A stretch of DNA of 64,000 nt from an uncultured Pseudomonadota bacterium (GTDB lineage: Bacteria; Pseudomonadota; Gammaproteobacteria; Xanthomonadales; Rhodanobacteraceae). A model generated the notes under the pieces. The model was not told the origin of the DNA and did not search any database. It saw only the letters and a program-made list of their open reading frames with translations. This document shows, in pieces, positions 28,743 through 43,228 of this stretch (positions within the stretch are counted from its first letter, which is position 1; each line of letters opens with the position of its first letter). The stretch lies in assembly GCA_963794205.1 (NCBI GenBank), contig CAWCCR010000007.1, forward strand, positions 72,498 through 136,497, read 5' to 3'. The position numbers and the translations under genes were made by a program.

Positions 28743-28888
28743 CGGCGGGACCTGCATGGCGCGTGGGTTCCGGACGATCGGCAACGGAATGGCGCATGAT
28801 CTCCGAAATCCTGCGCCTGCGCGATGATGATCGCCGGAGCGGCGCAACGCCCCGTGAGGATGCATCGATGCCGAAATGTCTTGCTGGT

Positions 28889-29293
28889 ATGCGGACTGTG
28901 CGCTGCGGCCGCGGGTTCGCCGCCCTGCTGACGATCATGCTGTGTGGCTGCGCGGGTGCGGCGCCCGCGATCCCGCCGGCGGGCAGCGCCGGGCGGATCG
29001 CGCCCGCGCTGGTCATCGCCGCGCAACGACTGGCGGCGGGTGCGCCGCTGAGCGACTACGCGCAGGGACCCGTGCGTGCCGACGCGCACGGCCGCCTGCA
29101 GGTCTATGTGTCGGTTGATGCCGTCACGCCGGAGCATACGCAGGCGCTGCGCAACGCCGGGCTCGCCGGCGCGGAGCCCAGTGCGGCGATGGGGCTGGTG
29201 CAGGGCTGGGTGTCGCCAGGGCAGTTGCGCGATCTCGCCGCGCTGCCCTTCGTGACGCGCATCGCGCCGCCGCGCTACGCCCGCGCCCGCTGA
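28889..29293 (+). CDS. Small lipoprotein consisting of a subtilase-propeptide-like domain
   Basis: Lipobox LCGC; clear similarity to the prodomain of the adjacent subtilase (LAALPFVTRIAPPRYA vs LAALPQVTRITLPRYA). Confidence 0.75.
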   Translation: MRTVRCGRGFAALLTIMLCGCAGAAPAIPPAGSAGRIAPALVIAAQRLAAGAPLSDYAQGPVRADAHGRLQVYVSVDAVTPEHTQALRNAGLAGAEPSAAMGLVQGWVSPGQLRDLAALPFVTRIAPPRYARAR

Positions 29294-29317
29294 GTGTCGC
29301 GCTCCACGCGTCGATAG

Positions 29318-29346
29318 AAAAGGCGCCGGTCCTCCGGCGCCTTTTT
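29318..29346. terminator. Bidirectional intrinsic terminator
   Basis: AAAAGGCGCCGG-tcct-CCGGCGCCTTTTT between convergent genes. Confidence 0.85.
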
Positions 29347-29368
29347 CGGAACCACGTGGCGATCGCGG

Positions 29369-31957
29369 TCAGCGGCGCAGGCTCACCCGCCCGCGGCGCA
29401 TCGCCTCCGCGGCGGCCAGCGCGCCCAGCGCCGCCAGCAGATCGAGGCTGATGGCACCGCCGCCGCCACTGCTCGGCGTTGGCGGCGGCGGTGGCGCCGT
29501 TACCGTCACGGTGCGCGTGGCCGCGGCGCTGGTGTTGAAGGTGGTGTTGGTGCAGGTCAACGTTGCGGTGTAAGTGCCAGCGGATGCATAGCTGACCGTC
29601 GTGCTGCCTTGCGTCGAACTGCCCGGATTGGCTCCATTGCCGAAAGCCCAGTTCAGCGTGACGTTGCCGGACGCGCCGTTGGCCGAGCAGCTGCCGCTGA
29701 AGTTGACCGAGCCGCCGGTCTGGATGCTGACGTTGCCGGTCGGTGTGCTGATCGTTGCCACCGGCGGCGGCGGATTGGTTACCGTGATCACCCGCGTGGC
29801 CGTGCTTGTGGTGCTGAACACGGTGTTGGTGCAGGTCAATGTTGCCGTATAGGTGCCGGTCGATGGATAAGTGACCGATACACTGCCTTGTGCCGACGTG
29901 CTCGGACTGGCTCCGCTGCCGAAACTCCAGCTCAGCGTGGTGCTGCCCGGCGCACCGTTGGTCGAGCAACTGCCGGCGAAGCTGATGGATTGACCGACGA
30001 AGATGCCGGTATTGCCGGACGGGGCACTGATCGTGGCGACTGGAGCGGATAGCGCAACGCCGGACTGGTACGCGTTGACGAGGCCATAGCCGTAGACCCC
30101 GTTGGGATTGCCGCCGCCATTGCTGGTGCCTGCGGTCAGCGGTTTCGCCCCGGCCTGCAGCATGGCGTAGGGATCCTTGCCCGGGTAGCCCTGCTCCAGC
30201 AGCGCCATGATCGCCGCGACGGCCTCCGAGGTGGCCGAGGTGCCGCAGAAGGTGGCGCTGGGCGGTGTGCCGCTGTTGGCGGTGCCGAACCCGCCGACGC
30301 CGGTCACCAGCACGCAGTCGACCGCGGTGAAATCGGGCTTTTGCCGCGAGCTGGTGCCGGTCGCGGGTTGCGAAAGGAACACCGGGCCTTGCGAGGCATA
30401 CGGCTCGATAGTGTCGTTGTTGTTCTGGGCGCTGGTCGCATCGATCGCGGTGGTGGTGATCTCGTACGGCGCCGGCAGCGCCGACTGGCCGTAGATGCTG
30501 CCGGCAGGCGTGTTCGGGACCAGCACGAAGCTGTGGTTGTTGGCGTACACGATCACTTTCAGGTGCTTACCGGGATTGCCCGTACCGTAGTAGATGTGCA
30601 GTTGCAACTGCTGCTGGCTGCTGCCGTTGTTGGTGTAACTGTTGCCCTGGACTGGCTGCGGGCCGGGCGTGTTGTTGGGTCCGGGTGTGCCGCTGAACAC
30701 GCAGCTGGTGGGCGAGGGCGGGCTGGCCGCACTGCCCAGGTTGATGCCCTGATTGCAGGCCAGCACGTTGCCGCTGGTGTCGGTCAGGAACACGTCGTAA
30801 TCGTTGGGATCGTTGGGCGTGCCGCTGGTGGGATTGGGAATCCAGGTGTCATCCCACTGCACCATGTAGGTGACCGTATCGCCCGCGGCAACCGGGAAGG
30901 TCATGCTGGTATTGGGGACGCCGGCGTTGCCGAAGTTCTGTGCCTGCGTGTACTTGACGCCGTTGATGGTGACGTTGACCGGCGTCGGGGTCCAGGTGCC
31001 GCTCCAGAACTGCTGCGCGTCGTTGCCGGCCGCGCTGGTCAGGCGGATGTTCGGGTGCGCGATGGCGAAGTTCTTCACCGCGGTGGCGAAGCCGCCGTCG
31101 GTGAACAGGGCCACGCCGGGGAATCCCAGATCATCGGCGACGATGTTGGGTGTGAAGCCGCCGGTGCCGGCGGCGAAGTCGTTGAGGCAGGTGACGAAAT
31201 CGACCGTGGTCGCCGGCCCGCAGAAGCCGAGCTTCGCACCCGGAGCCATGTCGTAGACGATCTCCATCATCGCCGTGCCCTCGAACCCCGAGCCCGGCAG
31301 CTTGGCGTCGACGTAGGGCGCCGGGCTGGTCGGCAGGTCGCCGGTGGCCTGGTCCTGGGCGATGTCGCCGGCGCCGTCGGAAATGATGCCGACCGAGATG
31401 CCGGATCCGTTGAGGCCGGTCGCCTGGCGGAATTGCGCCGTGCCGAGGATCTGGTCGCCCTGGGTGGTGACCGAGCCGCTGCGCGGCTGCGCGCCGACCG
31501 GCGGCAGATTGCGCCGTGGCACCGCGTAGCGCGGCAGGGTGATGCGGGTGACCTGCGGCAGCGCAGCCAGATGGTACAGCGCCGTCGCCGGCACCCAGGC
31601 CTGGACCACGCCGAGCTCGCTGCTGGCGCGGATGCCGGTTGCGCCCAGTGCGGTCAGCGCGCTCGTCGCGGGCGCGCCCGCGGCGCGGTCGAAGCCGAGA
31701 TAGACCTGCACCTGGCCGCTGCCGTTCCAGCGGGCTGCCAATGGGGCGGGGCCGCTGGGCTGCTGCTGTTCGGCCAGTGATCGGGTCATCATCGCGTGGG
31801 CCTGCGGCGTGCCTGAGGCCTGTGCGATCAGCGCAACCTGCGGTGCCAGCTTGGCGATCGCGGCAGCGGAGGGTGCGCTGTTCATGGCGTGCAGCGAGCC
31901 CGCGGCGAGCAGTGTCGTCAGTGCCAGCAGCAGCGCGGGTCGGAAGAGATGGCGCAT
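29369..31957 (-). CDS. S8-like subtilase with prodomain, two PKD domains and GlyGly-CTERM anchor
   Basis: Signal peptide; VGIISDG, FEGTAMMEIVYDMAPGA, SAAGND, FCGTSA; repeated WxFGxG...TYTATLT domains; C-terminus SSGGGGAISLDLLAALGALAAAEAMRRGR. Confidence 0.88.
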   Translation of the reverse strand: MRHLFRPALLLALTTLLAAGSLHAMNSAPSAAAIAKLAPQVALIAQASGTPQAHAMMTRSLAEQQQPSGPAPLAARWNGSGQVQVYLGFDRAAGAPATSALTALGATGIRASSELGVVQAWVPATALYHLAALPQVTRITLPRYAVPRRNLPPVGAQPRSGSVTTQGDQILGTAQFRQATGLNGSGISVGIISDGAGDIAQDQATGDLPTSPAPYVDAKLPGSGFEGTAMMEIVYDMAPGAKLGFCGPATTVDFVTCLNDFAAGTGGFTPNIVADDLGFPGVALFTDGGFATAVKNFAIAHPNIRLTSAAGNDAQQFWSGTWTPTPVNVTINGVKYTQAQNFGNAGVPNTSMTFPVAAGDTVTYMVQWDDTWIPNPTSGTPNDPNDYDVFLTDTSGNVLACNQGINLGSAASPPSPTSCVFSGTPGPNNTPGPQPVQGNSYTNNGSSQQQLQLHIYYGTGNPGKHLKVIVYANNHSFVLVPNTPAGSIYGQSALPAPYEITTTAIDATSAQNNNDTIEPYASQGPVFLSQPATGTSSRQKPDFTAVDCVLVTGVGGFGTANSGTPPSATFCGTSATSEAVAAIMALLEQGYPGKDPYAMLQAGAKPLTAGTSNGGGNPNGVYGYGLVNAYQSGVALSAPVATISAPSGNTGIFVGQSISFAGSCSTNGAPGSTTLSWSFGSGASPSTSAQGSVSVTYPSTGTYTATLTCTNTVFSTTSTATRVITVTNPPPPVATISTPTGNVSIQTGGSVNFSGSCSANGASGNVTLNWAFGNGANPGSSTQGSTTVSYASAGTYTATLTCTNTTFNTSAAATRTVTVTAPPPPPTPSSGGGGAISLDLLAALGALAAAEAMRRGRVSLRR

Positions 31958-32118
31958 CGGTGAACTTCCCCCAGAATGTTTGTGGAGATGGCAGAACCGT
32001 CCAGCCCCCGGAGTCTCCGGTTCCCTGTGGCCGGCACCGCACGATTTCGCCCGGGCATCGGGCTGGCCTATGCTAACCGCGACCTTTGCGCGGCGCGTGA
32101 ACGGGGGACTCCTACGAA

Positions 32119-32547
32119 ATGACAGCCTCATCGCGGCGGCAGCAGGGATTCACCCTGATCGAAATCATGGTGGTGGTAGTGATCATCGCCGTGCTGGCGA
32201 CGCTGATCCTGCCCAACGTCATCGGTCGCGCCGAGGACGCGCGGCTGGCCAAGGCCAAGGCCGACATCCGCGCGCTGGACTCGGCGCTGGCGATGTACCG
32301 GCTCGACAACGGCCACTATCCGTCCACCGACCAGGGCCTGCAGGCGCTGGTGAAAAAGCCTTCAGGCGACCCGCCGGCGCCCGACTGGCGCGCGGACGGT
32401 TACATCCGCACGCTGCCCGATGACCCCTGGGCGCATCCTTACGAGTATCTCAGCCCCGGCCAGCACGGTCCCTACGACTTGTGGTCCGATGGCCCGGACG
32501 GCGTGTCGGGAACCAGGGATGACATCCAGAGCTGGAACCTGAAGTAG
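32119..32547 (+). CDS. gspG: T2SS major pseudopilin
   Basis: QQGFTLIEIMVVVVII, YRLDNGHYPSTDQGLQALV, DPW, GPDG. Confidence 0.95.
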   Translation: MTASSRRQQGFTLIEIMVVVVIIAVLATLILPNVIGRAEDARLAKAKADIRALDSALAMYRLDNGHYPSTDQGLQALVKKPSGDPPAPDWRADGYIRTLPDDPWAHPYEYLSPGQHGPYDLWSDGPDGVSGTRDDIQSWNLK

Positions 32548-32555
32548 CGACGCGC

Positions 32556-33098
32556 GTGATCGCCGTACCCGCCGCAACCGCCACCGGACCCGCGTGCAGG
32601 CCGCAAGGCAGTGCCGGGTTTTCGCTGGTCGAGATGATGGTGGTGATCCTGATCATCGCGGTGATGACCAGCGTGGCGATGCTCAGCCTGTCGTTCGGCA
32701 GCCGTGATCGGGCCCGGCTCGCGGCCACGCAGCTGGCCGGCGTCCTGCGCAGCGCGCGGGAAGAAGCCGAGATGCAGGGGCGCAACCTCGCATTCGGTTT
32801 CTGGCAGCGAGGCTGGATCTGCTACCAGCTCGACGCCGCCGGTGCCTGGCAACCCCTGCTGGATGATCGCCTGCTGCGTCCGCGCACGCTCGACGACGGT
32901 CTCACGCTGACGCTGCGCCTGCAGGGCGAGCAAGTGCGGCTGGCCGCGCGGGCGCATTCCCATCCGCAGGTATTCGTGCTGTCCAGCGGCGAAATGGAGC
33001 CGTTCGTGCTGGAGCTGCGCGAGGCTGCCCGCAGCCGCGAACGGCTGACCGGCAGCGCGCTGGGCCAGATCACGCTGGAGAGCGAACATGCGCGCTGA
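32556..33098 (+). CDS. gspH: T2SS minor pseudopilin H
   Basis: AGFSLVEMMVVILII; PQVFVLSSGEMEPF; position after gspG. Confidence 0.88.
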   Translation: MIAVPAATATGPACRPQGSAGFSLVEMMVVILIIAVMTSVAMLSLSFGSRDRARLAATQLAGVLRSAREEAEMQGRNLAFGFWQRGWICYQLDAAGAWQPLLDDRLLRPRTLDDGLTLTLRLQGEQVRLAARAHSHPQVFVLSSGEMEPFVLELREAARSRERLTGSALGQITLESEHAR

Positions 33099-33486
33099 CG
33101 GTCCCGGCGTGCGGCGCGCGCACGGCTTCACGCTGCTCGAGGTGATGGTGGCGCTGCTGGTCGTCGCGCTGGGCCTGGCGGCGGCGGTGCAGCTGACCAC
33201 GCTGGCCGCTGACAACGCGCGAGCCCTGTCGCGGCGCACCGAGGCCGACTGGGTGGCGATGAACCGGCTGGGCGCGACGCAGCTGGCCGGCGCCTGGCCG
33301 GCGGACGGCAGCACCCAGGGCCACAGCGTCATGGCCGGCCGCACCTGGTATTGGCGTCAGCAGGTGCAGGGTGCCCCGCTGCCCAATCTGCGCGAGGTGG
33401 TGATCGAGGTGCGCGACCGGCCCGAAGGCCCTGCGCTGGCGACGCTGCATACCCTGGTCAGTCATGCCGCGAGCGGTCCGCCATGA
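33088..33486 (+). CDS. gspI: T2SS minor pseudopilin I
   Basis: HGFTLLEVMVAL; ADWVAMN; WYWRQ. Confidence 0.9.
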   Translation: MRADGPGVRRAHGFTLLEVMVALLVVALGLAAAVQLTTLAADNARALSRRTEADWVAMNRLGATQLAGAWPADGSTQGHSVMAGRTWYWRQQVQGAPLPNLREVVIEVRDRPEGPALATLHTLVSHAASGPP

Positions 33487-34079
33487 ACCGTGCCCGCGGC
33501 TTCACGCTGATCGAACTGCTGGTGGCTGTGGCGATCTTCGCCCTGATGGCGGCGCTGGCCTACGGCGGGCTCGCTACGCTGCTGCACCAGCGCGGCGAAC
33601 TCGAATCGCACTACCGCCGGTTGCACACGCTGCAGCGCGCCTATGCGCTGCTGCAGGCGGACTTCACGCAGGCCGCGCCGCGACCGGTGCGCGACGAACT
33701 GGGCGGTCCGCTGCCGGCGCTGCGCGGTGCGCCCGACGGCACGACCGTGGCGCTGTCACGCGACGGTTATCCGGACCCGGCCGGCGTGCGGCGCAGCGGA
33801 ATCATTCGCGTGCGCTACAGCCTCGACGGCCGGCGCCTGCTGCGCCTGCAGTGGCCGGTGCTCGACCGCGCGCCGGGCGAGACGCCGCCGCCCGACACCG
33901 TGCTCGATCACGTCGAGTCGCTGCGGTTCCGCTACGTCGATGCGCAGGGCAACGAACAATCCAGCTGGCCGCCGGCCGGCTCGGGCCCGCAGTCGCCCCT
34001 GCTGCCGCGCGCGGTGCGGGTGACGCTGAAGATGGACGGACTCGCGGGGTCGGTCACGTGGCTGTTCGTGCTGCCATGA
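33483..34079 (+). CDS. gspJ: T2SS minor pseudopilin J
   Basis: RGFTLIELLVAVAIFA; DFTQAAPRPVRD; WPVLD; LPRAV. Confidence 0.92.
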   Translation: MNRARGFTLIELLVAVAIFALMAALAYGGLATLLHQRGELESHYRRLHTLQRAYALLQADFTQAAPRPVRDELGGPLPALRGAPDGTTVALSRDGYPDPAGVRRSGIIRVRYSLDGRRLLRLQWPVLDRAPGETPPPDTVLDHVESLRFRYVDAQGNEQSSWPPAGSGPQSPLLPRAVRVTLKMDGLAGSVTWLFVLP

Positions 34080-35005
34080 ACGCGCCCCTTCGCCAGCGCG
34101 GCGTCGCGCTGCTGATCGCGCTGCTGGTGGTCGCCATCGCGGCGACGACGATGGTCTATCTGGCCTGGGACCAGACGCTCGCGATCCGCCGCAGCGAGGA
34201 CCGCATCGGACTGGATCGCGCCTGGGCGGTCGCGCTCGGCGCCGAAGCCTGGGCCGCGCAGGCGCTGGCCGACAACGCGCGCCAGCACGGCGGCGAGGTC
34301 GATCTGGCCCAGCCTTGGGCGCAGCCGCAGCGGCCGCAGATCTTCGGCGGCATCGAGGTCACCGGGCGGATCGAGGACCTGCAGGGCCGCTTCAACCTCA
34401 ACACCCTGGTCGCCGGCGCGCAGCCGGTCGCGATCGCGGTCACGCGCTACCGCGCGCTGCTGGCGACCCAGCAGCTGCCGTCCGATCTGGTCGCGCCGGT
34501 GATCGACTGGATCGATCCCGACAGCATGGCCAGCGGCAGCACCGGTGCCGAGGACGAGACCTACCTCGGACTCGCGCCACCGTATCGCGCGGCCAATCAG
34601 CCCTTGATCAGTGCCTCCAGCCTGCGTCTCGTCAGCGGCTACACGCAAGCCGTCTATGCACGCATCGCGCCCTGGGTCACCGCGCTGCCGGGCGCAACCG
34701 CCATCAACGTCAACACCGCGCCGCTGCCGGTGCTGATCGCGCTGGGCCTGAGTCCGGCGCAGGCGCGGGCGGTGGTCGTGCTGCGCGCGAAGCAGCCGTT
34801 TTCCACCCTGCAGCAGTTTCTCGCCAGCCCGCCGTTGCAGACGGCGGCGGTCGATCCGAGCCTGCTCGGCGTCGGCAGCCAGTACTTTCTGGTGCACATC
34901 GAGGTCCGCCTGGGTCGCCTGCGCGCCACCCTGGCAAGCGTGCTCGAAGTCGGCAATGGCGGTAAGGTCCGCGTTCTGCTGCGCACGCGTAACACCATGC
35001 CCTGA
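34076..35005 (+). CDS. gspK: T2SS minor pseudopilin K
   Basis: QRGVALLIALL; IEDLQGRFNLN; DWIDPD; INVNTAP. Confidence 0.92.
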   Translation: MNAPLRQRGVALLIALLVVAIAATTMVYLAWDQTLAIRRSEDRIGLDRAWAVALGAEAWAAQALADNARQHGGEVDLAQPWAQPQRPQIFGGIEVTGRIEDLQGRFNLNTLVAGAQPVAIAVTRYRALLATQQLPSDLVAPVIDWIDPDSMASGSTGAEDETYLGLAPPYRAANQPLISASSLRLVSGYTQAVYARIAPWVTALPGATAINVNTAPLPVLIALGLSPAQARAVVVLRAKQPFSTLQQFLASPPLQTAAVDPSLLGVGSQYFLVHIEVRLGRLRATLASVLEVGNGGKVRVLLRTRNTMP

Positions 35006-36246
35006 TGGATACCCTGCTGCTGCGCTGGATCGACGATGAGCATGCCGCCTGGCGCCTCGCAGGCGTGTCCGGTCGCGGCAGTCTGGCCGATGCCGCACCG
35101 CTGGCGCGTGGACGGCGCGTGCTGCTGCTGGTGCCCGGCGAGGACGTGCTGCTGGCATCTGCGGCGATGCCCAGCCGCAAACCGGCGGAGATCGCGCGCG
35201 CGTTGCCCTACGCGCTGGAGGAGTGGCTGCTGGAACCGCCGGAGACCCAGCACTTCGCCTGGCAGCGCAGCGTGTCCGGCGTGGCGGCCGCGGTCGTCGC
35301 GCGCGCCACGATCGGGCATTGGCTTGAGCGTCTCGACGAAGTCGGCATCGAACCCGATGTGCTGCTGCCGGACCTGCTGGCCCTGCCGTGGGTCGCGGGC
35401 CGCTGGAGCCTGTTCTGCGAATCGGGCGAAGCGGATGCGCGCGTGCTCGTGCGCAGCGGTCTGCGCGACGGCCTGGCCTGCACGCGAGCGAGCCTGCCGC
35501 TGGTGCTCGCCACGCTGCTGCAGCGCACCCCGGATGCGGAGCGCCCGACCGGAATCGATCTCCGGGGCGTCGTCGATGACGCCGGCGACGGCCCGCCATC
35601 CGCGGACCGTGCCGATTCCGCCCGCGGCATCGATGCCCTCGCGGCCGGGGCGGGTCTGCCGGTTACCCGCCAGCGCTCATCCGCGGCGCTGCTTGATCTC
35701 GCGGACGAATTCACGCTGCCCGCCGATTTCAACCTGCTGCAGGGTGCCTACGCCCCGCGGCGCGCGCAGGCGCGACGCAACGGCCCGCGCCGTGCCGTGG
35801 CGATCGCCGCGGCGTTGTGGCTGGTGAGCGCATTTGCCTACGCCGGCGTGCACGCGGCGGTCCTGGCGCGGGAGTCGCGCGTGCTGCAGGGCGCGATCGA
35901 CACGGTGTTCCGCGGCGCCGTGCCGGGCGAGCACCGCATCGTCGATGCCCGCGCGCAGCTGCAACAGGCGTTGAGCGCCGCGGAAGTCGGTCGCGGCACC
36001 GGTGGCCCGATCGGCCTGCTGGCGGCCGTCGCCGATGCCCGTCTCGACGCGACCGGCGTGCGTCTGCAGCGCATCGAATACCGCGATGGCAGGCTTGACC
36101 TGCTGCTGCAGGCGGAGCGTGCCGCCGCACTGGAAGCGGCGCGGCACGCGTTGGCGGCGCAGGGCCTGAACGCCGAGTTGCGCGATGTCGGCAGCGACGG
36201 CGGTCACGCGCAGGGTCGCATCCACATTGCCGGAGCGACGCGATGA
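35005..36246 (+). CDS. gspL: T2SS inner-membrane platform protein L
   Basis: ALPYALEE, LPDLLALP, FNLLQGAY followed by a TM segment. Confidence 0.88.
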   Translation: MDTLLLRWIDDEHAAWRLAGVSGRGSLADAAPLARGRRVLLLVPGEDVLLASAAMPSRKPAEIARALPYALEEWLLEPPETQHFAWQRSVSGVAAAVVARATIGHWLERLDEVGIEPDVLLPDLLALPWVAGRWSLFCESGEADARVLVRSGLRDGLACTRASLPLVLATLLQRTPDAERPTGIDLRGVVDDAGDGPPSADRADSARGIDALAAGAGLPVTRQRSSAALLDLADEFTLPADFNLLQGAYAPRRAQARRNGPRRAVAIAAALWLVSAFAYAGVHAAVLARESRVLQGAIDTVFRGAVPGEHRIVDARAQLQQALSAAEVGRGTGGPIGLLAAVADARLDATGVRLQRIEYRDGRLDLLLQAERAAALEAARHALAAQGLNAELRDVGSDGGHAQGRIHIAGATR

Positions 36247-36737
36247 AAACCTGGTGGATGCAGTTGGCTGCCCGCGAACGACTGCTGGTCGCATTCGGCG
36301 CGGCGGTGCTTGCGGGCGGTCTGATCTATGCGCTGATCTGGCATCCGCTGGCTCAGGACATCGCGCGCAACGAGGCACGCGTTGCGCAGCAGCGCGCGGA
36401 TCTCGTTTGGATGCAGCAGGCCGCGCTCCGGATGCGCGCGCTGCAGTCGCAGGGCGGCGGTCAGTCCGCGCCGCAGGCAACCGCCGGGCTGCCGTTGCGC
36501 GCCGTGCTGGATGCCGCCCTGCGTGCACAGGGCCTCGATAGCGCGGTGGCCGAGCGCGCGCCGGCCGGGGACGGCAGCATTCGTCTCACGCTCAAGGCGG
36601 TGCCCTTCGATGCCCTGCTGCGCTGTCTTGCCAGCCTGCAGACCGAAGGTTTGCAGGTGCGGACATTCGATCTGGATCGCGTCGGCGCAGGGCAGGTGGC
36701 AGGCTCGCTGCAGGTAGCGCGCGTTGCCGGGAGTTGA
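36243..36737 (+). CDS. gspM: T2SS protein M
   Basis: WWxQLAARER followed by TM; VPFDALL. Confidence 0.88.
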   Translation: MKTWWMQLAARERLLVAFGAAVLAGGLIYALIWHPLAQDIARNEARVAQQRADLVWMQQAALRMRALQSQGGGQSAPQATAGLPLRAVLDAALRAQGLDSAVAERAPAGDGSIRLTLKAVPFDALLRCLASLQTEGLQVRTFDLDRVGAGQVAGSLQVARVAGS

Positions 36738-36825
36738 ACGCAGGCGATGGGTGCAGACGTGGTCCATGCACGACGCCACGCCGGGGCAGTTGCATATATT
36801 CCGCCGGCCGCATTGCTGCGCAGGC

Positions 36826-38035
36826 TCACTTCACCAGCTGATCCAGCTGGAAGATCGGCAGCAGGATCGCCAGCACGATGCTGAAAACGATCATGCCCAT
36901 GACCACGATGGTCAGCGGTTCGAACAGGGCCAGCGCGGTGCCGATGGTGGCCGAGGTTTCGCGTTCCTGCTGCTCGGCCGCACGCCAGAGCATGTCCTCG
37001 AGATTGCCGCCGGTCTCGCCGCTGGCGATCAGGTACACCGCCATCGGCGGGAAGTAGCCGCTGTGGTCCAGCGCGGTGGCGACGCCGGAACCCTCGCGCA
37101 CGCGCGCCGCGACCTCCTGCAGGGCGTGGCGCATCGGCAGGCTGCCGATCACCTGACTGGCGATACCCAGGCCTTCGAGCAGCGGTACGCCGCTGGCGGC
37201 GAGGATGCTGAGCGTGCGCGTGAAGCGCGCCGTCTCGATGCCGCGCACCAGCCGGCCGATCAATGGCAGGCGCAGCACCAGGCGCTGCCAGCGCGCGCGC
37301 ACGGCGTCCTCGCGCAGCGCGCGGCGGATCAGCCAGGCGACGGCGATCAGCACGATGACCAATGCGATCCCCCAGTGTCTGAGGAACCCGCTGGTCGCGA
37401 TCAGCACCCGCGTCAGCAGCGGCAGCTCGGCGTGCATGGTGGCGAACACCTGGACGATCTTCGGCACCACGTAGCCGAGCAGCCCGGCCAGGATGACCAG
37501 CGACATGCTGACCAGGAATCCGGGGTAGATCAGCGCCTGCTGCACCCGCTGCTGCATGGCCTGGCGCGCCTCGGTGTAGTCGGCCAGCCGCGCCAGCACC
37601 GGATCGAGCCGGCCCGACTGCTCGCCGGCGGCGACGGTGGCACGGAACACCTCGTCGAACACGCCGGGAAAGTCGGCCATGCCGACCGCCATGCCGTGAC
37701 CCTCGACCACGCGCGCGCGTACACCGTGCAGCACCCGCGCGATGCGCGGGTGGCGCGCCTGCCGCGCGGCGGTCTGCAGCGCGTCGGCCACCGGCGCGCC
37801 GGTCGCCAGCAGGGTCGCGATCTGGCGCGTCGAGCAGCGCCAGCTCGTCCGCACGCAGACGTGTGCGGCGGCTGCGCCGGGGACCACTGCCACGCTCCTC
37901 GACCGCCTCGACCTCCAGCGGCAGCAGGCCGCCGTCGCGCAGCAGCTGGCGGATCTGGCGTGCGGTGTCGGCTTCGAGCACGCCCTTGCGGTGATGCCCC
38001 TGCGGGTCGAGCGCGACATATTCGAAGGCCGGCAC
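36826..38035 (-). CDS. gspF: T2SS protein F, +1 frameshift near 37831
   Basis: N-terminus MPAFEYVALD...DELALL in one frame; TRQIATLL, AGEQSGRL, SGETGG, FEPL, AILLPIF in another. Confidence 0.9.
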
Positions 38036-38039
38036 CGGT

Positions 38040-39551
38040 TCACTCCGCGCTGCGGGTGACGCGCAGCAATTCTTCCAGCGCGGTCGCGCCGGTCAGCACC
38101 AGGCGCACGCCGTCGGCGCGGATGCCGGGCACCTGCCGCCGTGCATGCAGCTCGAGATCCGCTTCGGCCGCGCCGTCATGGATCATGCGGCGCAGCGCGT
38201 CATCGATCGGTGTCACCTCGTAGATGCCGCTGCGCCCGAGGTAGCCGGCGCCATGGCAGGTCGGGCAGCCGACCGGATGGAACAGCATTGCCGGCGCGTC
38301 GCCGAGGCCGAGCTCGGCGCGCTCGGTGGCATCCGCCGGCTGCGCGCGCCGGCAGTGAGGGCAGAGCAGACGCACCAGCCGCTGCGCGGCGACCCCGATC
38401 AGGGTCGAGGCGAGCAGATAGGGCTCCACGCCCATGTCACGCAGGCGCGCCACCGCACCGATTGCGGTGTTGGTATGCAGGGTCGAGAGCACCAGGTGGC
38501 CGGTCAGGCTGGCCTGGACCGCGATCTCGGCGGTCTCGAGATCACGGATCTCGCCGACCATCACCACGTCCGGATCCTGGCGCAGGATCGCGCGCAGACC
38601 GCGCGCGAAGCTCATGTCCACCTTGGGGTTGACCTGGGTCTGGCCGATGCCGTCGATGAAGTACTCGATCGGATCCTCGACGGTGAGGATGTTGCGGCGG
38701 CGGTCGTTGAGTTCGGCCAGCACGGCATACAGGGTGGTGGTCTTGCCCGAGCCGGTCGGACCGGTGACCAGCAGGATGCCGTGCGGCTGGCGGATCAGCC
38801 GCACCAGACGCGCGCGAGTGTCCGGGTCCATGCCCAGGCCGCCGAGATCGAGGCGGCCAGCCTGGCGGTCGAGCAGGCGCAGCACCACGCGCTCGCCGTG
38901 GCCGGAGGGCAGGGTGGACACGCGCACGTCCACCGGGTGCCCGGCCACGCGCAGGCTGATGCGGCCGTCCTGCGGCAGGCGCTTCTCGGCGATGTCGAGA
39001 CGCGCCATCACCTTGATGCGCGAGACGATGGTGCCGGCCAGCGCGCGTGGCGGTTCGAGGATCTCGCGCAGGGTGCCGTCCACGCGCAGGCGCACCGACA
39101 GGCGGCCCTCGAACGGCTCGATGTGCACGTCGGAGGCACCCTCGCGCACCGCCTGGGCGAGGATCGCGTTGATCAGGCGGATGATCGGCGCGTCGTCCTG
39201 GCTCTCCAGCAGATCCTCGGGTTCGGGCAGGGCCGAGGCCGCGGCCGCGAGATCGATGTCCTCGCCCAGGTCCTGCATCATCGCCTGCGCGCCGCCGGGA
39301 CCGGTGTCGCCGTAGCGGCGCGTCAGCTGGCGTTCGAACTCGGCGTCGTCGAGGCGCTCGAGCTGGAGCGGCCGGCCCAGCGTGCGCGCCAGCTCCGCCA
39401 GCACGCGCGGGTCGGGCAGGCCGCGGTGGCGCACGCGGGCTCGGGCCACGTCCACGTCCACCAGTACGCCGTGGCGCTTGGCGTAACCGTAGCCGACCGC
39501 GACGTCCGCTGCGGTGACGTGGCCGGTGTCGCTGGCTTCAGCGCGATCCAT
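38040..39551 (-). CDS. gspE: T2SS ATPase E
   Basis: ASDVHIEP, LDIAEKRLPQDG, GPTGSGKTT, LRQDPD, CPHC..CPTC. Confidence 0.95.
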   Translation of the reverse strand: MDRAEASDTGHVTAADVAVGYGYAKRHGVLVDVDVARARVRHRGLPDPRVLAELARTLGRPLQLERLDDAEFERQLTRRYGDTGPGGAQAMMQDLGEDIDLAAAASALPEPEDLLESQDDAPIIRLINAILAQAVREGASDVHIEPFEGRLSVRLRVDGTLREILEPPRALAGTIVSRIKVMARLDIAEKRLPQDGRISLRVAGHPVDVRVSTLPSGHGERVVLRLLDRQAGRLDLGGLGMDPDTRARLVRLIRQPHGILLVTGPTGSGKTTTLYAVLAELNDRRRNILTVEDPIEYFIDGIGQTQVNPKVDMSFARGLRAILRQDPDVVMVGEIRDLETAEIAVQASLTGHLVLSTLHTNTAIGAVARLRDMGVEPYLLASTLIGVAAQRLVRLLCPHCRRAQPADATERAELGLGDAPAMLFHPVGCPTCHGAGYLGRSGIYEVTPIDDALRRMIHDGAAEADLELHARRQVPGIRADGVRLVLTGATALEELLRVTRSAE

Positions 39552-41649
39552 GCGGCGGAGCGGCGCTGGTGGCGGGCGCCGGCGTGGTGGACGCAGCGGG
39601 CGCGGGAGCCGTACCGGCCCTGGCGGGAGAGTCCGCACCGCTGATGGCCGGCGCCGGCGCGGATCGGGCCCGTGGCAGATTCGGCGGCGCCGGAGCGAAA
39701 TGCTGCAGGTTCTCCGGCAGCGGCGGCATCGGCGTTGGCGCATCGCTCTGCGAACCCTGGATCGGGGCGTTCTGCTGCTGGCGCAGCACGCGGTACTTCT
39801 CGGCGGTGTAGGCGTTGGCCAGCGCCTGGTTCGAAAGGATCACCGGATGCAGAAAGATCATCAGGTTCTGCTTCTGCCGTTCGCGCGAGGTCGAGCGGAA
39901 CAGGTGCCCGACCAGCGGCAGGCTGCCCAGCAGCGGCACCTTCTGCACCGAGTCCTTGTAGGTGTCCTGGATCAGCCCGCCCAGCACGATGATCGAGTCG
40001 CTGTCGGTGATCACCACGGTCTTGATCTGGCGCTTGTTGGTAATCAGGTCGGTGGCACCGGTGACCGATGGCGCCAGGCTCGACACCGTCAGCTCAAGCT
40101 TGAGGCGCACGCTGTCGCCCATGTTGATCTGCGGCGTCACCTTGAGGGTGATGCCGATGTCCTTGCGCTCGATGGTCTGGAACGGGCTGCTGACCACGCC
40201 GCCGCCGGTCGGCGTCTGCGTGGTGCTGTAGCTGCCGGTCAGGAAGGGCACGTTCTGGCCGACGACGATCTCGGCCTCCTTGTTGTCCAGCGTCAGCAGG
40301 CTGGGCGTGGACAGGATGTTGGTCGCGGAGTTGGACGACAGCGCGTTCAGCAGCAGGCCGTAGCGGGTCTGCCCGGCGCGATTGCTGCCGAAGCCCAGCA
40401 GCAGGCCGGGCTGGCCCGCCAGCGCCCCCGCGGTCGCCACCGAGCCCGCGGCCAGCGTGGTCAGCGGCAGCGCGCCGTTGCTGAAATTGGTCAGCGCCGC
40501 CGGACCCTGGTTGGATCCGCGGTTGGGCAGCACGGCGATCTGCGCGCCGAGTTGCCGCGAGAGGTCGCCCGAGACCTCGGCGATGATCGCGTCGATCAGC
40601 ACTTCCTTGGGCCGGATATCGAGCTGGCGCACGATCTCGCGCAGATCGCGCAGCTTGTCGGGCGGCCCGGTCAGGATCAGCGCATTGCTGGCGCTGTCGG
40701 CCTGGATGTTGACCGGGCTCTCGGCCACGGACCTGGACTTGCCGTCGGCCGACTGCTGGTGCGAGACGATCTCGCCCAGCACCTTCGCGATGTCCCCGGC
40801 CTTGGCATAGCGCAGGAACACGACGCGCGAATTGCCGGCCTGCGGCAGTGGCACGTCGAGGCGGCCGACCAGGGCACGCACGCGCGCCTGGGCTGCGCTG
40901 TCACCGGCCAGCAGGAGGCTGTTGGTGCGCCGATCGGCCACCACGCGCGCCTGCGGCAGGGCGGACTCGGCGCCCGCCGGCGGCTCCTGCAGCTCGTTGA
41001 TGGTGCGGGCGACGTCCTCGGCCGACGCGTGTTGCAGCTGGATCACGCTGATGCCGGCCTCGCCGGGGCGGTCGAGTTGGGCGACCAGGCGCATCACCCG
41101 CGCGACGTTGTCCGCGCGGTCGGTGACGATCAGCATGTTGCCGGGCGGATAGGCCGCCAGCAGCGCCTGCGGCGGCAGCAGCGGGCGCAGCATCGTCGCC
41201 AGCTGCGTCGCGCCGACGTTCTGCACGCGGATGACGCGGGTGACCATCTCCTCGCCCTGGCCATGCAGCTGCAGGCTCTGGCGGGCGTTGATCGCCGGCA
41301 CGATCTTGACCACCGCGCCGGCCGGCACCGCCGAGTAGCCATACACGTCCAGCACCGACAGGAACACCTGGTACAAGGCGTCACGGTCCATCGGCGAGGA
41401 AGAGACCACGGTGACGTTGCCACGTACGCGCGGATCGACCACGAAGTTGATGCCGGTGGCCTTGGACACGGTGTCGATCAGGGTCCGGATGTCGACGTCG
41501 CGCAGATTGAGGGTGACCTCGTCGCCGGCCGCCGCCGCAGCCGCTGGCGCCGGAGTGTTCGGCACATGCTGCGCGGCCGCCCGCAATGGCAGCGCGAGCA
41601 CGAGTACGAGCATCAGCAGACCGGACGACAGGGCAGTGCGCTGGGTCAT
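39538..41649 (-). CDS. gspD: T2SS secretin D
   Basis: N0 domain NFVVDPRVRG; EVLIDAIIAEV; LSTPSLLTLDNKEAEIVVGQNVP; KVPLLGSLP. Confidence 0.95.
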   Translation of the reverse strand: MTQRTALSSGLLMLVLVLALPLRAAAQHVPNTPAPAAAAAAGDEVTLNLRDVDIRTLIDTVSKATGINFVVDPRVRGNVTVVSSSPMDRDALYQVFLSVLDVYGYSAVPAGAVVKIVPAINARQSLQLHGQGEEMVTRVIRVQNVGATQLATMLRPLLPPQALLAAYPPGNMLIVTDRADNVARVMRLVAQLDRPGEAGISVIQLQHASAEDVARTINELQEPPAGAESALPQARVVADRRTNSLLLAGDSAAQARVRALVGRLDVPLPQAGNSRVVFLRYAKAGDIAKVLGEIVSHQQSADGKSRSVAESPVNIQADSASNALILTGPPDKLRDLREIVRQLDIRPKEVLIDAIIAEVSGDLSRQLGAQIAVLPNRGSNQGPAALTNFSNGALPLTTLAAGSVATAGALAGQPGLLLGFGSNRAGQTRYGLLLNALSSNSATNILSTPSLLTLDNKEAEIVVGQNVPFLTGSYSTTQTPTGGGVVSSPFQTIERKDIGITLKVTPQINMGDSVRLKLELTVSSLAPSVTGATDLITNKRQIKTVVITDSDSIIVLGGLIQDTYKDSVQKVPLLGSLPLVGHLFRSTSRERQKQNLMIFLHPVILSNQALANAYTAEKYRVLRQQQNAPIQGSQSDAPTPMPPLPENLQHFAPAPPNLPRARSAPAPAISGADSPARAGTAPAPAASTTPAPATSAAPPHGSR

Positions 41650-41737
41650 GGCGTGACCGCAAAGGAAAGGAGGATCGTAGCAGCCGGTCGCGGTCGCGCC
41701 GGAGCCCGCGGCAACTGGCGGCAAGCAGGCGCCGGCA

Positions 41738-42586
41738 TCAGGGCGCCTGCGGGCCGAGATTGAGCGTGCGGCCGTCGCGCATCACGGTCAGCGTCGGCGG
41801 CTGGCCATCGCGCAGCCGCCCCTGAACCGCCTGCATGGCCTGCACCGGGCCGCCCAGCGGCGTGCCGTCGATCGCGGTGATCACGTCGCCCGGCCGCAGG
41901 CCGAGGCGCACCAGCAACACCGGATTGACGCCCGGCAACACGCGGTAGCCGGCGATGCGGCCGTCCTTGATCACCGGCTGGGCGCGGCCCAGCGCGCCGA
42001 AGTTCAGCATGCCGCCACGGGTCGGAGGCCAGGGTGCCGGCCCGGATGCGCCGTTCGCGCCGGATGGCGGCGTGCCTGTCGCGGGTGACCCGGCTTCCAT
42101 CATCGCCTCGGGACCCTCGATGGCGGGCGGCGATTCCGCGCCGCTCGATACCGGTCTGGGCAGCGTCAGCGCGGCGACCCCGGCCGCGGTACGCAGCAAT
42201 ACCCGGTCGGGATAGACCGCAGCCACCACCACGCCGTCGGGCAACCTCTCGCCGCTGGCGTAGGCGCGTGCCGGCACACTGGCGGAGCCGGCCAGCAGGG
42301 CATAGCCGCGACCGTCATGCACCGCATAGACGCCTTCAAGGCGCAGGCCGAGCAGCGCCGCCGCCGCCGCGCTGCCGCCACCGCCGAACAGGTGCGCGGC
42401 CAGCAGGCGATCGAGCGGACTGGACGACGGCGCACTGGAGGACATGGCCACGGACGGCGTCGGATGCAGCGCCGCACGCACGAGCAGGCCGCTGCGCAGC
42501 AGGTTCCACGCTGCCAGCAATCCCAGCAGCAAAGCCGCGACCCAGAGCAGGTGCGGCAGCCGGCGCGTGGAGGATCCCCAGCGCAT
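41738..42586 (-). CDS. gspC: T2SS protein C with PDZ domain
   Basis: TM, HLFG, LRLEGV, VYPDRVLL (HR domain); GLRPGDVITAIDG (PDZ). Confidence 0.85.
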   Translation of the reverse strand: MRWGSSTRRLPHLLWVAALLLGLLAAWNLLRSGLLVRAALHPTPSVAMSSSAPSSSPLDRLLAAHLFGGGGSAAAAALLGLRLEGVYAVHDGRGYALLAGSASVPARAYASGERLPDGVVVAAVYPDRVLLRTAAGVAALTLPRPVSSGAESPPAIEGPEAMMEAGSPATGTPPSGANGASGPAPWPPTRGGMLNFGALGRAQPVIKDGRIAGYRVLPGVNPVLLVRLGLRPGDVITAIDGTPLGGPVQAMQAVQGRLRDGQPPTLTVMRDGRTLNLGPQAP

Positions 42587-42600
42587 GTGCAATGGCGACT

Positions 42601-43197
42601 TCAGCGACCTTCCCCCGCGCTGCGCGTCGCGCGCAGCCTCAGCCATCCCAGACGCAGCAGGATAAAGGCCGCGCCCCCCAGCGCGCCATACAGATGCGCC
42701 TGCGGCACCACCGCGCCGCCGAGATCGCGCGTTTCGCCAGGCAGGGCGCCGGCATGCAGGGTCCAGCCGATCACAGCCGCCATGCCCAGCAGCAGCGCGC
42801 CGGCGTACAACGGGCGTTGATGCCATTCCAGCAGCGCACCGGCACAGAACAGGCCGAACAGTACCCCCGAGATGCCGACGTACCACTCGACCTGCGGACT
42901 GAAGACGAGCAGGCCGAGACCGACTGCCGTGGCGCAGGCCAGGATCAGCACCAGCCAGGTACGATCGCGCATCCGCGGTGCGAACAGGCCCCAGATCAGG
43001 AACAGGCCGGCCAGATCGCGCAGCAGATGCACCCAGCCCAGATGCACCAGGTTGCCCGTCAGCAGGCGCCAGAGCTGGCCGTGCAGCACCGCGGCACGCC
43101 GGTACTCGAGCGCATCGCGCAGGCCCAGCGCCTGCAACGCGAGCAGCAGGGCCGCCAGCAGCAGCGGCAGGCGCCATACGCGCAGCATGCGGCGCAC
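42601..43197 (-). CDS. Rhombosortase (rhomboid-family intramembrane protease)
   Basis: GQLWRLLTGNLVHLGWVHL, YVGISGVL (catalytic Ser), AHLYGALGG (catalytic His); ~200 aa multi-TM; GlyGly-CTERM target nearby. Confidence 0.88.
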   Translation of the reverse strand: MRRMLRVWRLPLLLAALLLALQALGLRDALEYRRAAVLHGQLWRLLTGNLVHLGWVHLLRDLAGLFLIWGLFAPRMRDRTWLVLILACATAVGLGLLVFSPQVEWYVGISGVLFGLFCAGALLEWHQRPLYAGALLLGMAAVIGWTLHAGALPGETRDLGGAVVPQAHLYGALGGAAFILLRLGWLRLRATRSAGEGR

Positions 43198-43228
43198 TGC
43201 GCTCACCGGATCGGCATGCCTGCGGTGG

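What the first reader, a model, noticed from the sequence alone, without database searches (positions are those of the whole stretch)
28889..43197. Self-contained surface-protease display cassette: subtilase + GlyGly-CTERM + dedicated T2SS + rhombosortase + propeptide lipoprotein
Seen in the sequence: one contiguous block encodes a GlyGly-CTERM-tailed subtilase divergent from gspG (161-bp gap), a T2SS (gspG-M on +, gspC-F on -) and a rhomboid with rhombosortase motifs just upstream of gspC. Established: rhombosortases process GlyGly-CTERM tails, and such proteins (e.g. Vibrio VesB) reach the surface through T2SS. Inference: this is a one-cargo export/anchoring machine, separate from the Xps system typical of Xanthomonadales. 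It has an extra member, a propeptide-like lipoprotein, that I do not know from described cassettes.
Basis: partly seen in the sequence, partly recalled or inferred. Interest (0 to 1): 0.85.

Follow-up and report, generated by a model that had tools for sequence, protein, structure and literature searches.

The report
Rhombosortase T2SS with stand-alone propeptide lipoprotein
This block encodes a type II secretion system plus a membrane protease that likely anchor several surface proteins rather than one, and next to it a small lipoprotein that is a free copy of a neighbouring protease's own propeptide and likely acts as a membrane-bound brake on that protease, a pairing kept in several distant bacterial families.

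Summary
The genes are there as described. The rhomboid passes the rhombosortase model; the T2SS is Gsp-type, not Xps. The 'self-contained one-cargo machine' is not supported: the genome has three GlyGly-tailed candidate cargoes, the prepilin peptidase lies elsewhere, and the subtilase flanks gspG in only 5 of 14 genus genomes that carry it. The rhombosortase sits before gspC in 12 of 12, and most of the genus lacks an Xps-like GspF (2 of 12, against 186 of 189 other family genomes), so this looks like the genus's general export and anchoring route. Rhombosortase-T2SS linkage is common in the class (24 of 60 loci head-to-head with gspG). The gspF frameshift is probably an assembly error. The real novelty is the lipoprotein: a stand-alone, lipid-anchored subtilase propeptide (38% identical to the cognate prodomain, propeptide fold, invariant lipobox cysteine, end point fixed at the zymogen's basic linker residue). 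It is paired with a Glu-for-His subtilase in this genus, in 11 metagenome loci and in 4 other families. It is most likely a dedicated inhibitor; binding is untested. New variant of known kinds; interest about 0.5.

The parts
28868..29293 (+). Stand-alone subtilase-propeptide lipoprotein, 141 aa, lipobox Cys28, ends PRYARAR
   Evidence: 38% identity to the subtilase prodomain; Cys28 invariant in 27 of 27 aligned; model's ten best structural matches are all subtilase propeptides or zymogens; no Pfam or NCBIfam hit
29317..29348 (.). Perfect hairpin with A and T runs on both sides, likely a bidirectional terminator between the convergent lipoprotein and subtilase genes
   Evidence: Seen in the sequence; folding z-scores -3.2 and -5.0 on the two strands; not listed by the consensus scan
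29369..31957 (-). Subtilase zymogen, 862 aa: signal peptide, prodomain, catalytic domain with Glu in place of the catalytic His and an inserted beta-sandwich, two PKD domains, GlyGly-CTERM-like tail
   Evidence: PKD hits; model pLDDT 88.2; Foldseek best hits Csp proteases and pro-subtilisins; Z about 30 to subtilisins; E226, E232, D275, D276, N312, S574 invariant in 109 of 109
29369..29470 (-). GlyGly-CTERM-like tail (SGGGGA, hydrophobic stretch, RRGR)
   Evidence: No TIGR03501 hit here; orthologue tails in G069 and G203 pass; Gly run in the last 42 aa of 111 of 120 homologues
31958..32118 (.). 161-bp divergent intergenic region between subtilase and gspG
   Evidence: Sequence; no sigma-70 consensus found
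32119..36737 (+). gspG (32119-32547), gspH (32556-33098, start unsure), gspI (33088-33486), gspJ (33483-34079), gspK (34076-35005), gspL (35005-36246), gspM (36243-36737)
   Evidence: NCBIfam and Pfam hits
36826..38035 (-). gspF, with one extra base at 37832 in this assembly, probably an assembly error
   Evidence: TIGR02120 431.5 against 424; base absent in 4 of 4 runs laid and in all 8 related locus records aligned
38040..41649 (-). gspE (38040-39551) and gspD (39538-41649)
   Evidence: TIGR02533 671.6 against 630; TIGR02517 552 against 351; trees
41738..42586 (-). gspC with a PDZ domain
   Evidence: Pfam T2SSC 36.8 against 27; PDZ_2 just under its cut-off
42601..43206 (-). Rhombosortase, 201 aa, 14 bp upstream of gspC and 22 bp downstream of parC
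   Evidence: TIGR03902 139.7 against 84; WR, GISG and AHLYG motifs; sequence

Best explanation
The block holds a Gsp-type T2SS with a rhombosortase gene fixed upstream of gspC, which likely serves as the general export-and-anchor route for all GlyGly-tailed proteins of this genus, and a subtilase-plus-lipoprotein pair that likely moved in beside it in one subclade, where the lipoprotein likely inhibits the protease. Steps: (1) shown: gene identities, three GlyGly-tailed candidates, scarcity of Xps in the genus, gene orders. (2) Inferred from Vibrio VesB (PMC6219818): the zymogen crosses the inner membrane by Sec, the rhombosortase cuts after the Gly run, the new end is lipidated, the T2SS moves it to the surface, and the propeptide is removed there. 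(3) Inferred from motif equivalence and invariance: catalysis uses Ser574, Glu226 and one of Asp275/276, with Asn312 as oxyanion residue. (4) Inferred: the lipoprotein is a lipid-anchored mimic of the cleaved propeptide that binds enzyme which has lost its own propeptide, most simply in the periplasm, and protects the envelope from premature proteolysis.
For: Rhombosortase before gspC in 12 of 12 genus genomes that have it. Three tails by pattern, one over the TIGR03501 cut-off. XpsF-like gene in 2 of 12 genus genomes against 186 of 189 others. Only two secretins in G028 and G050. All rhombosortase-linked genus GspE and GspD form one clade apart from Xps. Lipoprotein: homology and fold; present in 12 of 14 genus genomes with the subtilase and kept in 6 where it is unlinked; paired with the subtilase in 11 of 22 metagenome loci of the close subfamily and in 5 class-level genomes of 4 families; 26 of 26 end four residues after the invariant Tyr, 25 in Arg, where 91 of 109 zymogens have Lys or Arg; stand-alone copies do not group with their cognate prodomains, so they are an old separate line. 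Stand-alone propeptide mimics are inhibitors in eukaryotes (PMC6993865, passages).
Against: No binding, activity or localisation data. The window's own tail misses TIGR03501 and has Asp and Glu in or near the hydrophobic stretch; with my own tail profile it scored 9.1 bits and the C12 tail 8.0, barely above the fourth-ranked unrelated tail at 7.9. G028 (99% complete) has the subtilase but no lipoprotein was found, and five metagenome loci forming one clade lack an adjacent one: it is not obligatory. This genome has a second T2SS (C7:166367-177160) that could also carry the cargo, and it is only 85% complete, so Xps may be missed. Xps-clade genes persist in G103, G178 and G201. Structural Z for the lipoprotein is under 8. 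The catalytic Asp is not identified.
Confidence: 0.58

Rival explanations
1. The lipoprotein is a membrane-anchored folding or secretion chaperone acting in trans, like the Acinetobacter CpaB and Lif chaperones, and the subtilase needs it to become T2SS-competent.
For: Propeptides are foldases (PMC9549277, passages). It lies directly upstream and co-oriented in 10 metagenome loci and 5 class-level genomes. Membrane-anchored T2SS chaperones are encoded next to their cargo (PMC4713064, passages).
Against: Every partner subtilase checked keeps its own full prodomain. G028 lacks the lipoprotein yet keeps a full-length subtilase. In this genus the two genes are convergent with a hairpin between them, or unlinked.
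Confidence: 0.2
2. The lipoprotein is itself surface-exposed and tethers or holds the mature protease at the outer membrane after the lipid anchor is shed, or it regulates a different partner, as some stand-alone PepSY proteins do.
For: Lipid anchor always kept; one genome has a stand-alone prodomain with a GlyGly-like tail instead (G234). Stand-alone PepSY proteins regulate non-protease partners (PMC4282423, passages). In six genus genomes it sits after a large signalling-type gene, not the protease.
Against: The fixed C-terminal end point matches an active-site-binding propeptide tail. In G069 the order subtilase, lipoprotein, large gene shows that the unlinked state can come from one break of the old neighbourhood.
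Confidence: 0.15
3. One reading: a dedicated one-cargo export and anchoring cassette for this subtilase, beside a general Xps system.
For: Subtilase divergent from gspG in 5 genomes of one subclade, which may give shared regulation. Dedicated one-target rhombosortase pairs are known (PMC3237569, section 15).
Against: Three tailed candidates and one rhombosortase over cut-off in the genome; other cargo or none beside the same T2SS in relatives; no Xps found here; no pilD in the block; in the published dedicated systems target and sortase are mostly within one gene of each other, here they are 11 genes apart.
Confidence: 0.05

Closest known systems
Vibrio cholerae RssP / VesB / Eps pathway (PMC6219818, passages; PMC13393428, passages; PMC12369372, abstract)
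   Same: Rhombosortase, GlyGly-tailed protease zymogen with an Ig-like domain before the tail, T2SS whose GspC has a PDZ domain.
   Different: Cargo is a subtilase with two PKD domains, not a trypsin. Here the sortase gene is inside the T2SS block; the words operon, adjacent and synteny do not occur in PMC6219818. No stand-alone propeptide is described in the passages I saw.
GlyGly-CTERM / rhombosortase systems (Haft and Varghese 2011, PMC3237569, passages and section 15)
   Same: One sortase to several targets; S8/S53 proteases are among known tailed families.
   Different: That paper found no evidence that rhombosortase marks a T2SS subclass. Here the sortase is physically tied to the T2SS in 12 of 12 genus genomes and head-to-head with gspG in 24 of 60 class loci.
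Stand-alone subtilisin propeptide-like inhibitors: MEROPS I9 proteins of fungi and plants, TgMIC5, Plasmodium SUB1-ProM (PMC6993865, passages)
   Same: Small separate gene product with the propeptide fold, encoded near a subtilase, with a C-terminal tail that could enter the active site.
   Different: All those named are eukaryotic and soluble and lack clear sequence similarity to their targets' prodomains. This one is bacterial, lipid-anchored and 38% identical to the cognate prodomain. Inhibition is untested.
Stand-alone PepSY proteins such as SspA and YpeB (PMC4282423, passages)
   Same: Bacterial free copies of a protease propeptide domain, some of them lipoproteins.
   Different: PepSY belongs to M4 metalloproteases and has another fold.
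Clostridial Csp proteases and Tk-subtilisin zymogens; Glu-type subtilase subset of Siezen et al. 2007 (paper not held; recalled)
   Same: Subtilisin fold with prodomain; beta-sandwich inserted in the catalytic domain as in CspB.
   Different: His replaced by an invariant Glu; no solved relative of the catalytic domain by sequence. Unlike sedolisin (recalled), no Asp four residues after the Glu, and Asn in the oxyanion motif.

Membership tests
Rhombosortase (TIGR03902) | Score over the curated cut-off | tested here: met
   139.7 against 84 bits
Rhombosortase (TIGR03902) | Co-occurs with GlyGly-CTERM proteins | tested here: met
   One genome protein over the TIGR03501 cut-off, three by pattern
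Rhombosortase (TIGR03902) | Cleaves after the Gly motif | not testable with these tools
   Needs experiment
GlyGly-CTERM protein (the subtilase) | TIGR03501 hit over 15.5 bits | tested here: not met
   No hit for this protein; orthologue tails in G069 (15.8) and G203 (15.6 summed) pass
GlyGly-CTERM protein (the subtilase) | Gly-rich motif, hydrophobic segment, basic end, and an N-terminal signal peptide | tested here: met
   Sequence; peak 17-residue hydropathy 1.82; Gly run in 111 of 120 homologues; signal peptide judged by eye
Type II secretion system | Core genes C to M present | tested here: met
   gspF frame break absent in 4 of 4 runs
Type II secretion system | Prepilin peptidase within the cluster (for 'self-contained') | tested here: not met
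   Single A24 peptidase at G000:C8:234143
Xps-type T2SS | XpsF score band and GspE/GspD placement with the family's Xps | tested here: not met
   XpsF model 232.5 bits here against about 525-570 for the 150 family matches listed; separate clades
Xcs-type T2SS | Placement with a named Xcs system | tested here: inconclusive
   No named Xcs reference available; GspE falls in a broad Gsp-type clade that also holds second systems of the order (FastTree)
Dedicated one-target sorting system (PMC3237569) | Single tailed target per genome, usually within one gene of the sortase | tested here: not met
   Three candidates; 11 genes between subtilase and sortase
Classical S8 subtilase | Asp-His-Ser triad | tested here: not met
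   Invariant Glu226 at the His motif; Asp194 only 78 of 109; fold is subtilisin
S53 sedolisin | Glu and Asp four apart on one helix, Asp in the oxyanion hole (recalled) | tested here: not met
   Met230 at +4 and Asn312, both invariant
I9-type stand-alone propeptide inhibitor (the lipoprotein) | Subtilisin propeptide fold in a separate gene product | tested here: met
I9-type stand-alone propeptide inhibitor (the lipoprotein) | Pfam Inhibitor_I9 match | tested here: not met
   No Pfam hit at E 0.01
I9-type stand-alone propeptide inhibitor (the lipoprotein) | Binds and inhibits a subtilase | not testable with these tools
   Needs experiment

The most novel reading that the evidence does not exclude
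A bacterial family of lipid-anchored, stand-alone subtilase propeptides works as dedicated membrane-bound inhibitors of rhombosortase-anchored, Glu-type surface subtilases, giving Gram-negative cells a periplasmic safety catch against their own exoprotease; in this acidophile genus the whole route runs through a rhombosortase-linked T2SS that has largely displaced Xps.
Probability: 0.45. Interest if true: 0.7.

Novelty: new variant of a known kind. Interest (0 to 1): 0.5.

Why it matters
How T2SS proteases are kept silent in the periplasm is only partly explained by their own propeptides. A lipid-anchored free propeptide would add a simple, testable control layer and a bacterial counterpart of eukaryotic I9-like inhibitors. 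The subtilase subfamily has a Glu-for-His active site with no solved relative and is missed by Pfam S8 here, so it is a candidate acid-active protease from mine-drainage-type habitats. The wide genomic tie between rhombosortase and T2SS gives gene-order support for a link shown by experiment in Vibrio. Homologues are named from Metallibacterium scheffleri, so a cultured species may allow direct tests.

Tried and rejected
Complex prediction of lipoprotein with catalytic domain: tool not available; no verdict. Profile search of all protein representatives: machine busy, so the full range of the lipoprotein family is not known. ESM Atlas: no answer. Sequence search of PDB found only PKD domains. 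Foldseek gave no match at E 0.001 for the lipoprotein. No RNA holder listed. Promoter scan found nothing; no hairpin between gspM and gspF. gspF as a true pseudogene was rejected: the extra base is absent in 4 of 4 runs and 8 of 8 related records, and 4 of 58 tested genes of this assembly are frameshifted; the source reads were not available, so a strain-specific lesion is not excluded. Recent transfer of the block was rejected: GC3 0.79-0.93 against a genome median of 0.88. L146 and L161 were dropped from the lipoprotein count as probable frameshifted zymogens. L245 was dropped from the T2SS count (weak secretin only) and my query did not locate the sortase in L262. Siezen 2007 was not held. 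Searches of earlier findings by place, by sequence and by the full word set gave nothing. No supplements were read; tables in them could hold gene-neighbourhood data that I did not see.

Full report
Observation. The window is G000:C7:72498-136497 of an 85%-complete genome. The rhomboid passes the rhombosortase model at 139.7 bits (cut-off 84). gspG-L, F, E and D pass NCBIfam cut-offs; gspM and gspC pass Pfam. The subtilase and gspG starts are 161 bp apart and divergent. Close homologues of GspD and of the subtilase carry the name Metallibacterium, so the genome likely belongs to or near that genus; runs holding related DNA are soil and mine-drainage metagenomes (four laid).

gspF. One extra base at 37832 breaks the frame. 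It is absent in 4 of 4 runs laid and in all 8 related locus records aligned, and 4 of 58 tested genes in this assembly are frameshifted. It is probably an assembly error.

Not one cargo. TIGR03501 misses the window's tail but finds another protein, C7:304700-307279, with FG-GAP repeats and DUF11. A pattern scan gives three tails: these two and C12:20177-23494, whose G050 orthologue has Vps10/BNR and TIG domains. A profile built from 97 tails of distant homologues ranks the three first of 2,240 protein ends, but the second and third (9.1, 8.0 bits) barely clear the fourth (7.9). The window's tail is supported by homologues: 111 of 120 have a Gly run near the end, and two orthologue tails pass TIGR03501. 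The C12-type cargo is found, whole or in part, in 13 of 16 genus genomes and lies just after gspF in G050 and G103. The only prepilin peptidase found is on contig C8. The genome also has a second T2SS at C7:166367-177160.

What is conserved. A rhombosortase over cut-off occurs in 12 of 201 family genomes, 9 of them in this genus; the genus count is 12 of 16, the misses being 72-89% complete. In all 12 it lies directly upstream of gspC. The subtilase is in 14 of 16 genus genomes but flanks gspG in only 5 (G000, G134, G192, G201, G119). In six it follows lptG, in G069 it follows pepA-holC, and in two the context was not seen. None of 79 metagenome loci of subtilase relatives had a gsp or rhombosortase hit, though many are short. 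G069 shows the order subtilase, lipoprotein, large signalling-type gene, which joins the two sites where the genes sit apart in other species. I infer that the pair is old and moved next to gspG in one subclade.

Relation to Xps. An XpsF-like gene (E at most 1e-100; none reaches the curated cut-off) is in 186 of 189 other family genomes and in 2 of 12 of this genus; G201, outside that sample, has an Xps-clade secretin. G028 and G050, both 99% complete, have two secretins: this GspD and a presumed PilQ, not tested. GspE (careful tree) and GspD (quick tree) place all rhombosortase-linked genus systems in one clade (99/98 for GspE), apart from Xps. A wider FastTree puts them in a broad Gsp-type clade with rhombosortase-linked systems of other families. 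So the system largely replaces Xps rather than adding to it. No named Xcs reference was available.

Rhombosortase beside T2SS is common. It is over cut-off in 128 of 400 class genomes. Of 60 loci chosen from these for having long flanks (47 families), 26 have gspG within the 19 kb and 24, from 20 families, have the sortase head-to-head with gspG. Kin are not independent and the choice was not random. Haft and Varghese found no evidence that rhombosortase marks a T2SS subclass (PMC3237569, passages); a T2SS cassette tied to another sorting signal is described (10.1101/2023.06.07.544157, passages). I did not find the linkage in print (listings only, plus word look-ups).

The subtilase. Pfam sees only two PKD domains, while three homologues tested hit Peptidase_S8. 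The model (pLDDT 88.2, pTM 0.90) matches Csp proteases and pro-subtilisins. Among 109 aligned sequences Glu226 (at the His motif), Glu232, Asp275, Asp276, Asn312 and Ser574 are invariant, while Asp194 is kept in 78. I infer a Ser-Glu-Asp triad; a subset of this kind is recalled from Siezen et al. 2007, which was not held. Activity is untested.

The lipoprotein. It is 38% identical to the prodomain. Its lipobox Cys is invariant in 27 of 27. The ten best structural matches are all subtilase propeptides or zymogens (Z 7.6-5.5), which is modest alone but agrees with the sequence. It is in 12 of the 14 genus genomes with the subtilase, adjacent in 6 and unlinked in 6. It was not found in G028. Among 22 metagenome loci of the close subfamily, 11 have it adjacent (10 directly upstream, one locus with two pairs); three lack upstream sequence; eight do not show it, five of them forming one clade. 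Among 73 more distant loci, mostly tail-less, none was counted, but the profile is weak there. In the class sample 10 of 399 other genomes matched, and 5 from 4 families have the lipoprotein directly before a Glu-type subtilase; all five have a rhombosortase. All 26 stand-alone copies end four residues after the invariant Tyr, 25 in Arg; zymogens have Lys or Arg there in 91 of 109. The copies do not group with their cognate prodomains in a short-alignment tree. A strong hairpin separates the two convergent genes here.

Mechanism. By analogy with VesB (PMC6219818, passages), the zymogen would be cut by rhombosortase, lipidated, exported by the T2SS and activated at the surface. The lipoprotein looks like an already-cleaved propeptide on a lipid anchor, so the simplest role is to catch and inhibit enzyme that activates early. 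Stand-alone propeptide mimics are inhibitors in fungi, plants and apicomplexans (PMC6993865, passages); bacterial precedents are PepSY proteins for another protease class (PMC4282423, passages) and membrane-bound T2SS chaperones (PMC4713064, passages). A chaperone role fits less well because every partner keeps its own prodomain and G028 lacks the gene. Searches (listings) showed no bacterial lipid-anchored subtilase propeptide; two searches showed no paper on this system in Metallibacterium. The library lacks most subscription papers.

Verdict. Observation confirmed, interpretation partly supported. The one-cargo cassette is a subclade arrangement of a general system. The new elements are the propeptide lipoprotein family, the near-replacement of Xps and the wide sortase-T2SS linkage. 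New variant of a known kind; interest 0.5.

Noticed in passing
G000:C7:166367-177160 (L001): Second T2SS (gspF,E,D on minus; a short C-like gene and gspG-N on plus) with lower GC3 (0.75-0.87) next to a 1,047-aa Vps10/BNR protein; its GspE groups with second systems of three genomes of family f2.
   Followed up: partly
G000:C12:19713-20174 and L010:9175-9546, L012:9130-9678: Another small lipoprotein-like gene with no Pfam hit lies directly upstream of the Vps10/TIG GlyGly-tailed cargo in G000, G050 and G103: a second cargo-plus-lipoprotein pair.
   Followed up: partly
L287:2480-3829 (G234, minus strand): A stand-alone prodomain with a signal-peptide-like start and a GlyGly-like hydrophobic tail instead of a lipobox lies upstream of a tailed subtilase: either another anchor for the same module or a deletion remnant.
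   Followed up: no
L014, L015, L016, L017, L018 (genera g10 and g21): Rhombosortase-like hits next to a gene for a roughly 260-aa protein ending in a GlyGly-like tail, with no T2SS genes seen nearby: looks like the published dedicated two-gene type; no Pfam hit for the L016 protein.
   Followed up: partly
L213 (G248) and L215 (G478): GlyGly-tailed proteins lie inside or beside the T2SS-rhombosortase cluster in two other families.
   Followed up: no
L009, and G050, G103, G149, G164: gspG-M follows an ordinary rhomboid gene in G028, and gspK lies 3-4 kb downstream of a non-sortase rhomboid hit in four more genomes, so two rhomboids bracket the T2SS in that subclade.
   Followed up: no
window 26334-28757 (minus): Penicillin-amidase family gene divergent from the lipoprotein, kept beside it in G134, G201 and G119; a relative lies about 6 kb from the pair in G291.
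   Followed up: no
G000:C15:18514-30948: Gene cluster that reads like a Tad/Flp pilus locus, holding one of the four secretins; judged by eye.
   Followed up: no
L083, L084, L085, L086, L091: A third T2SS-like type (order E-F-G...D) in several genus genomes, forming its own GspE and GspD clade.
   Followed up: no
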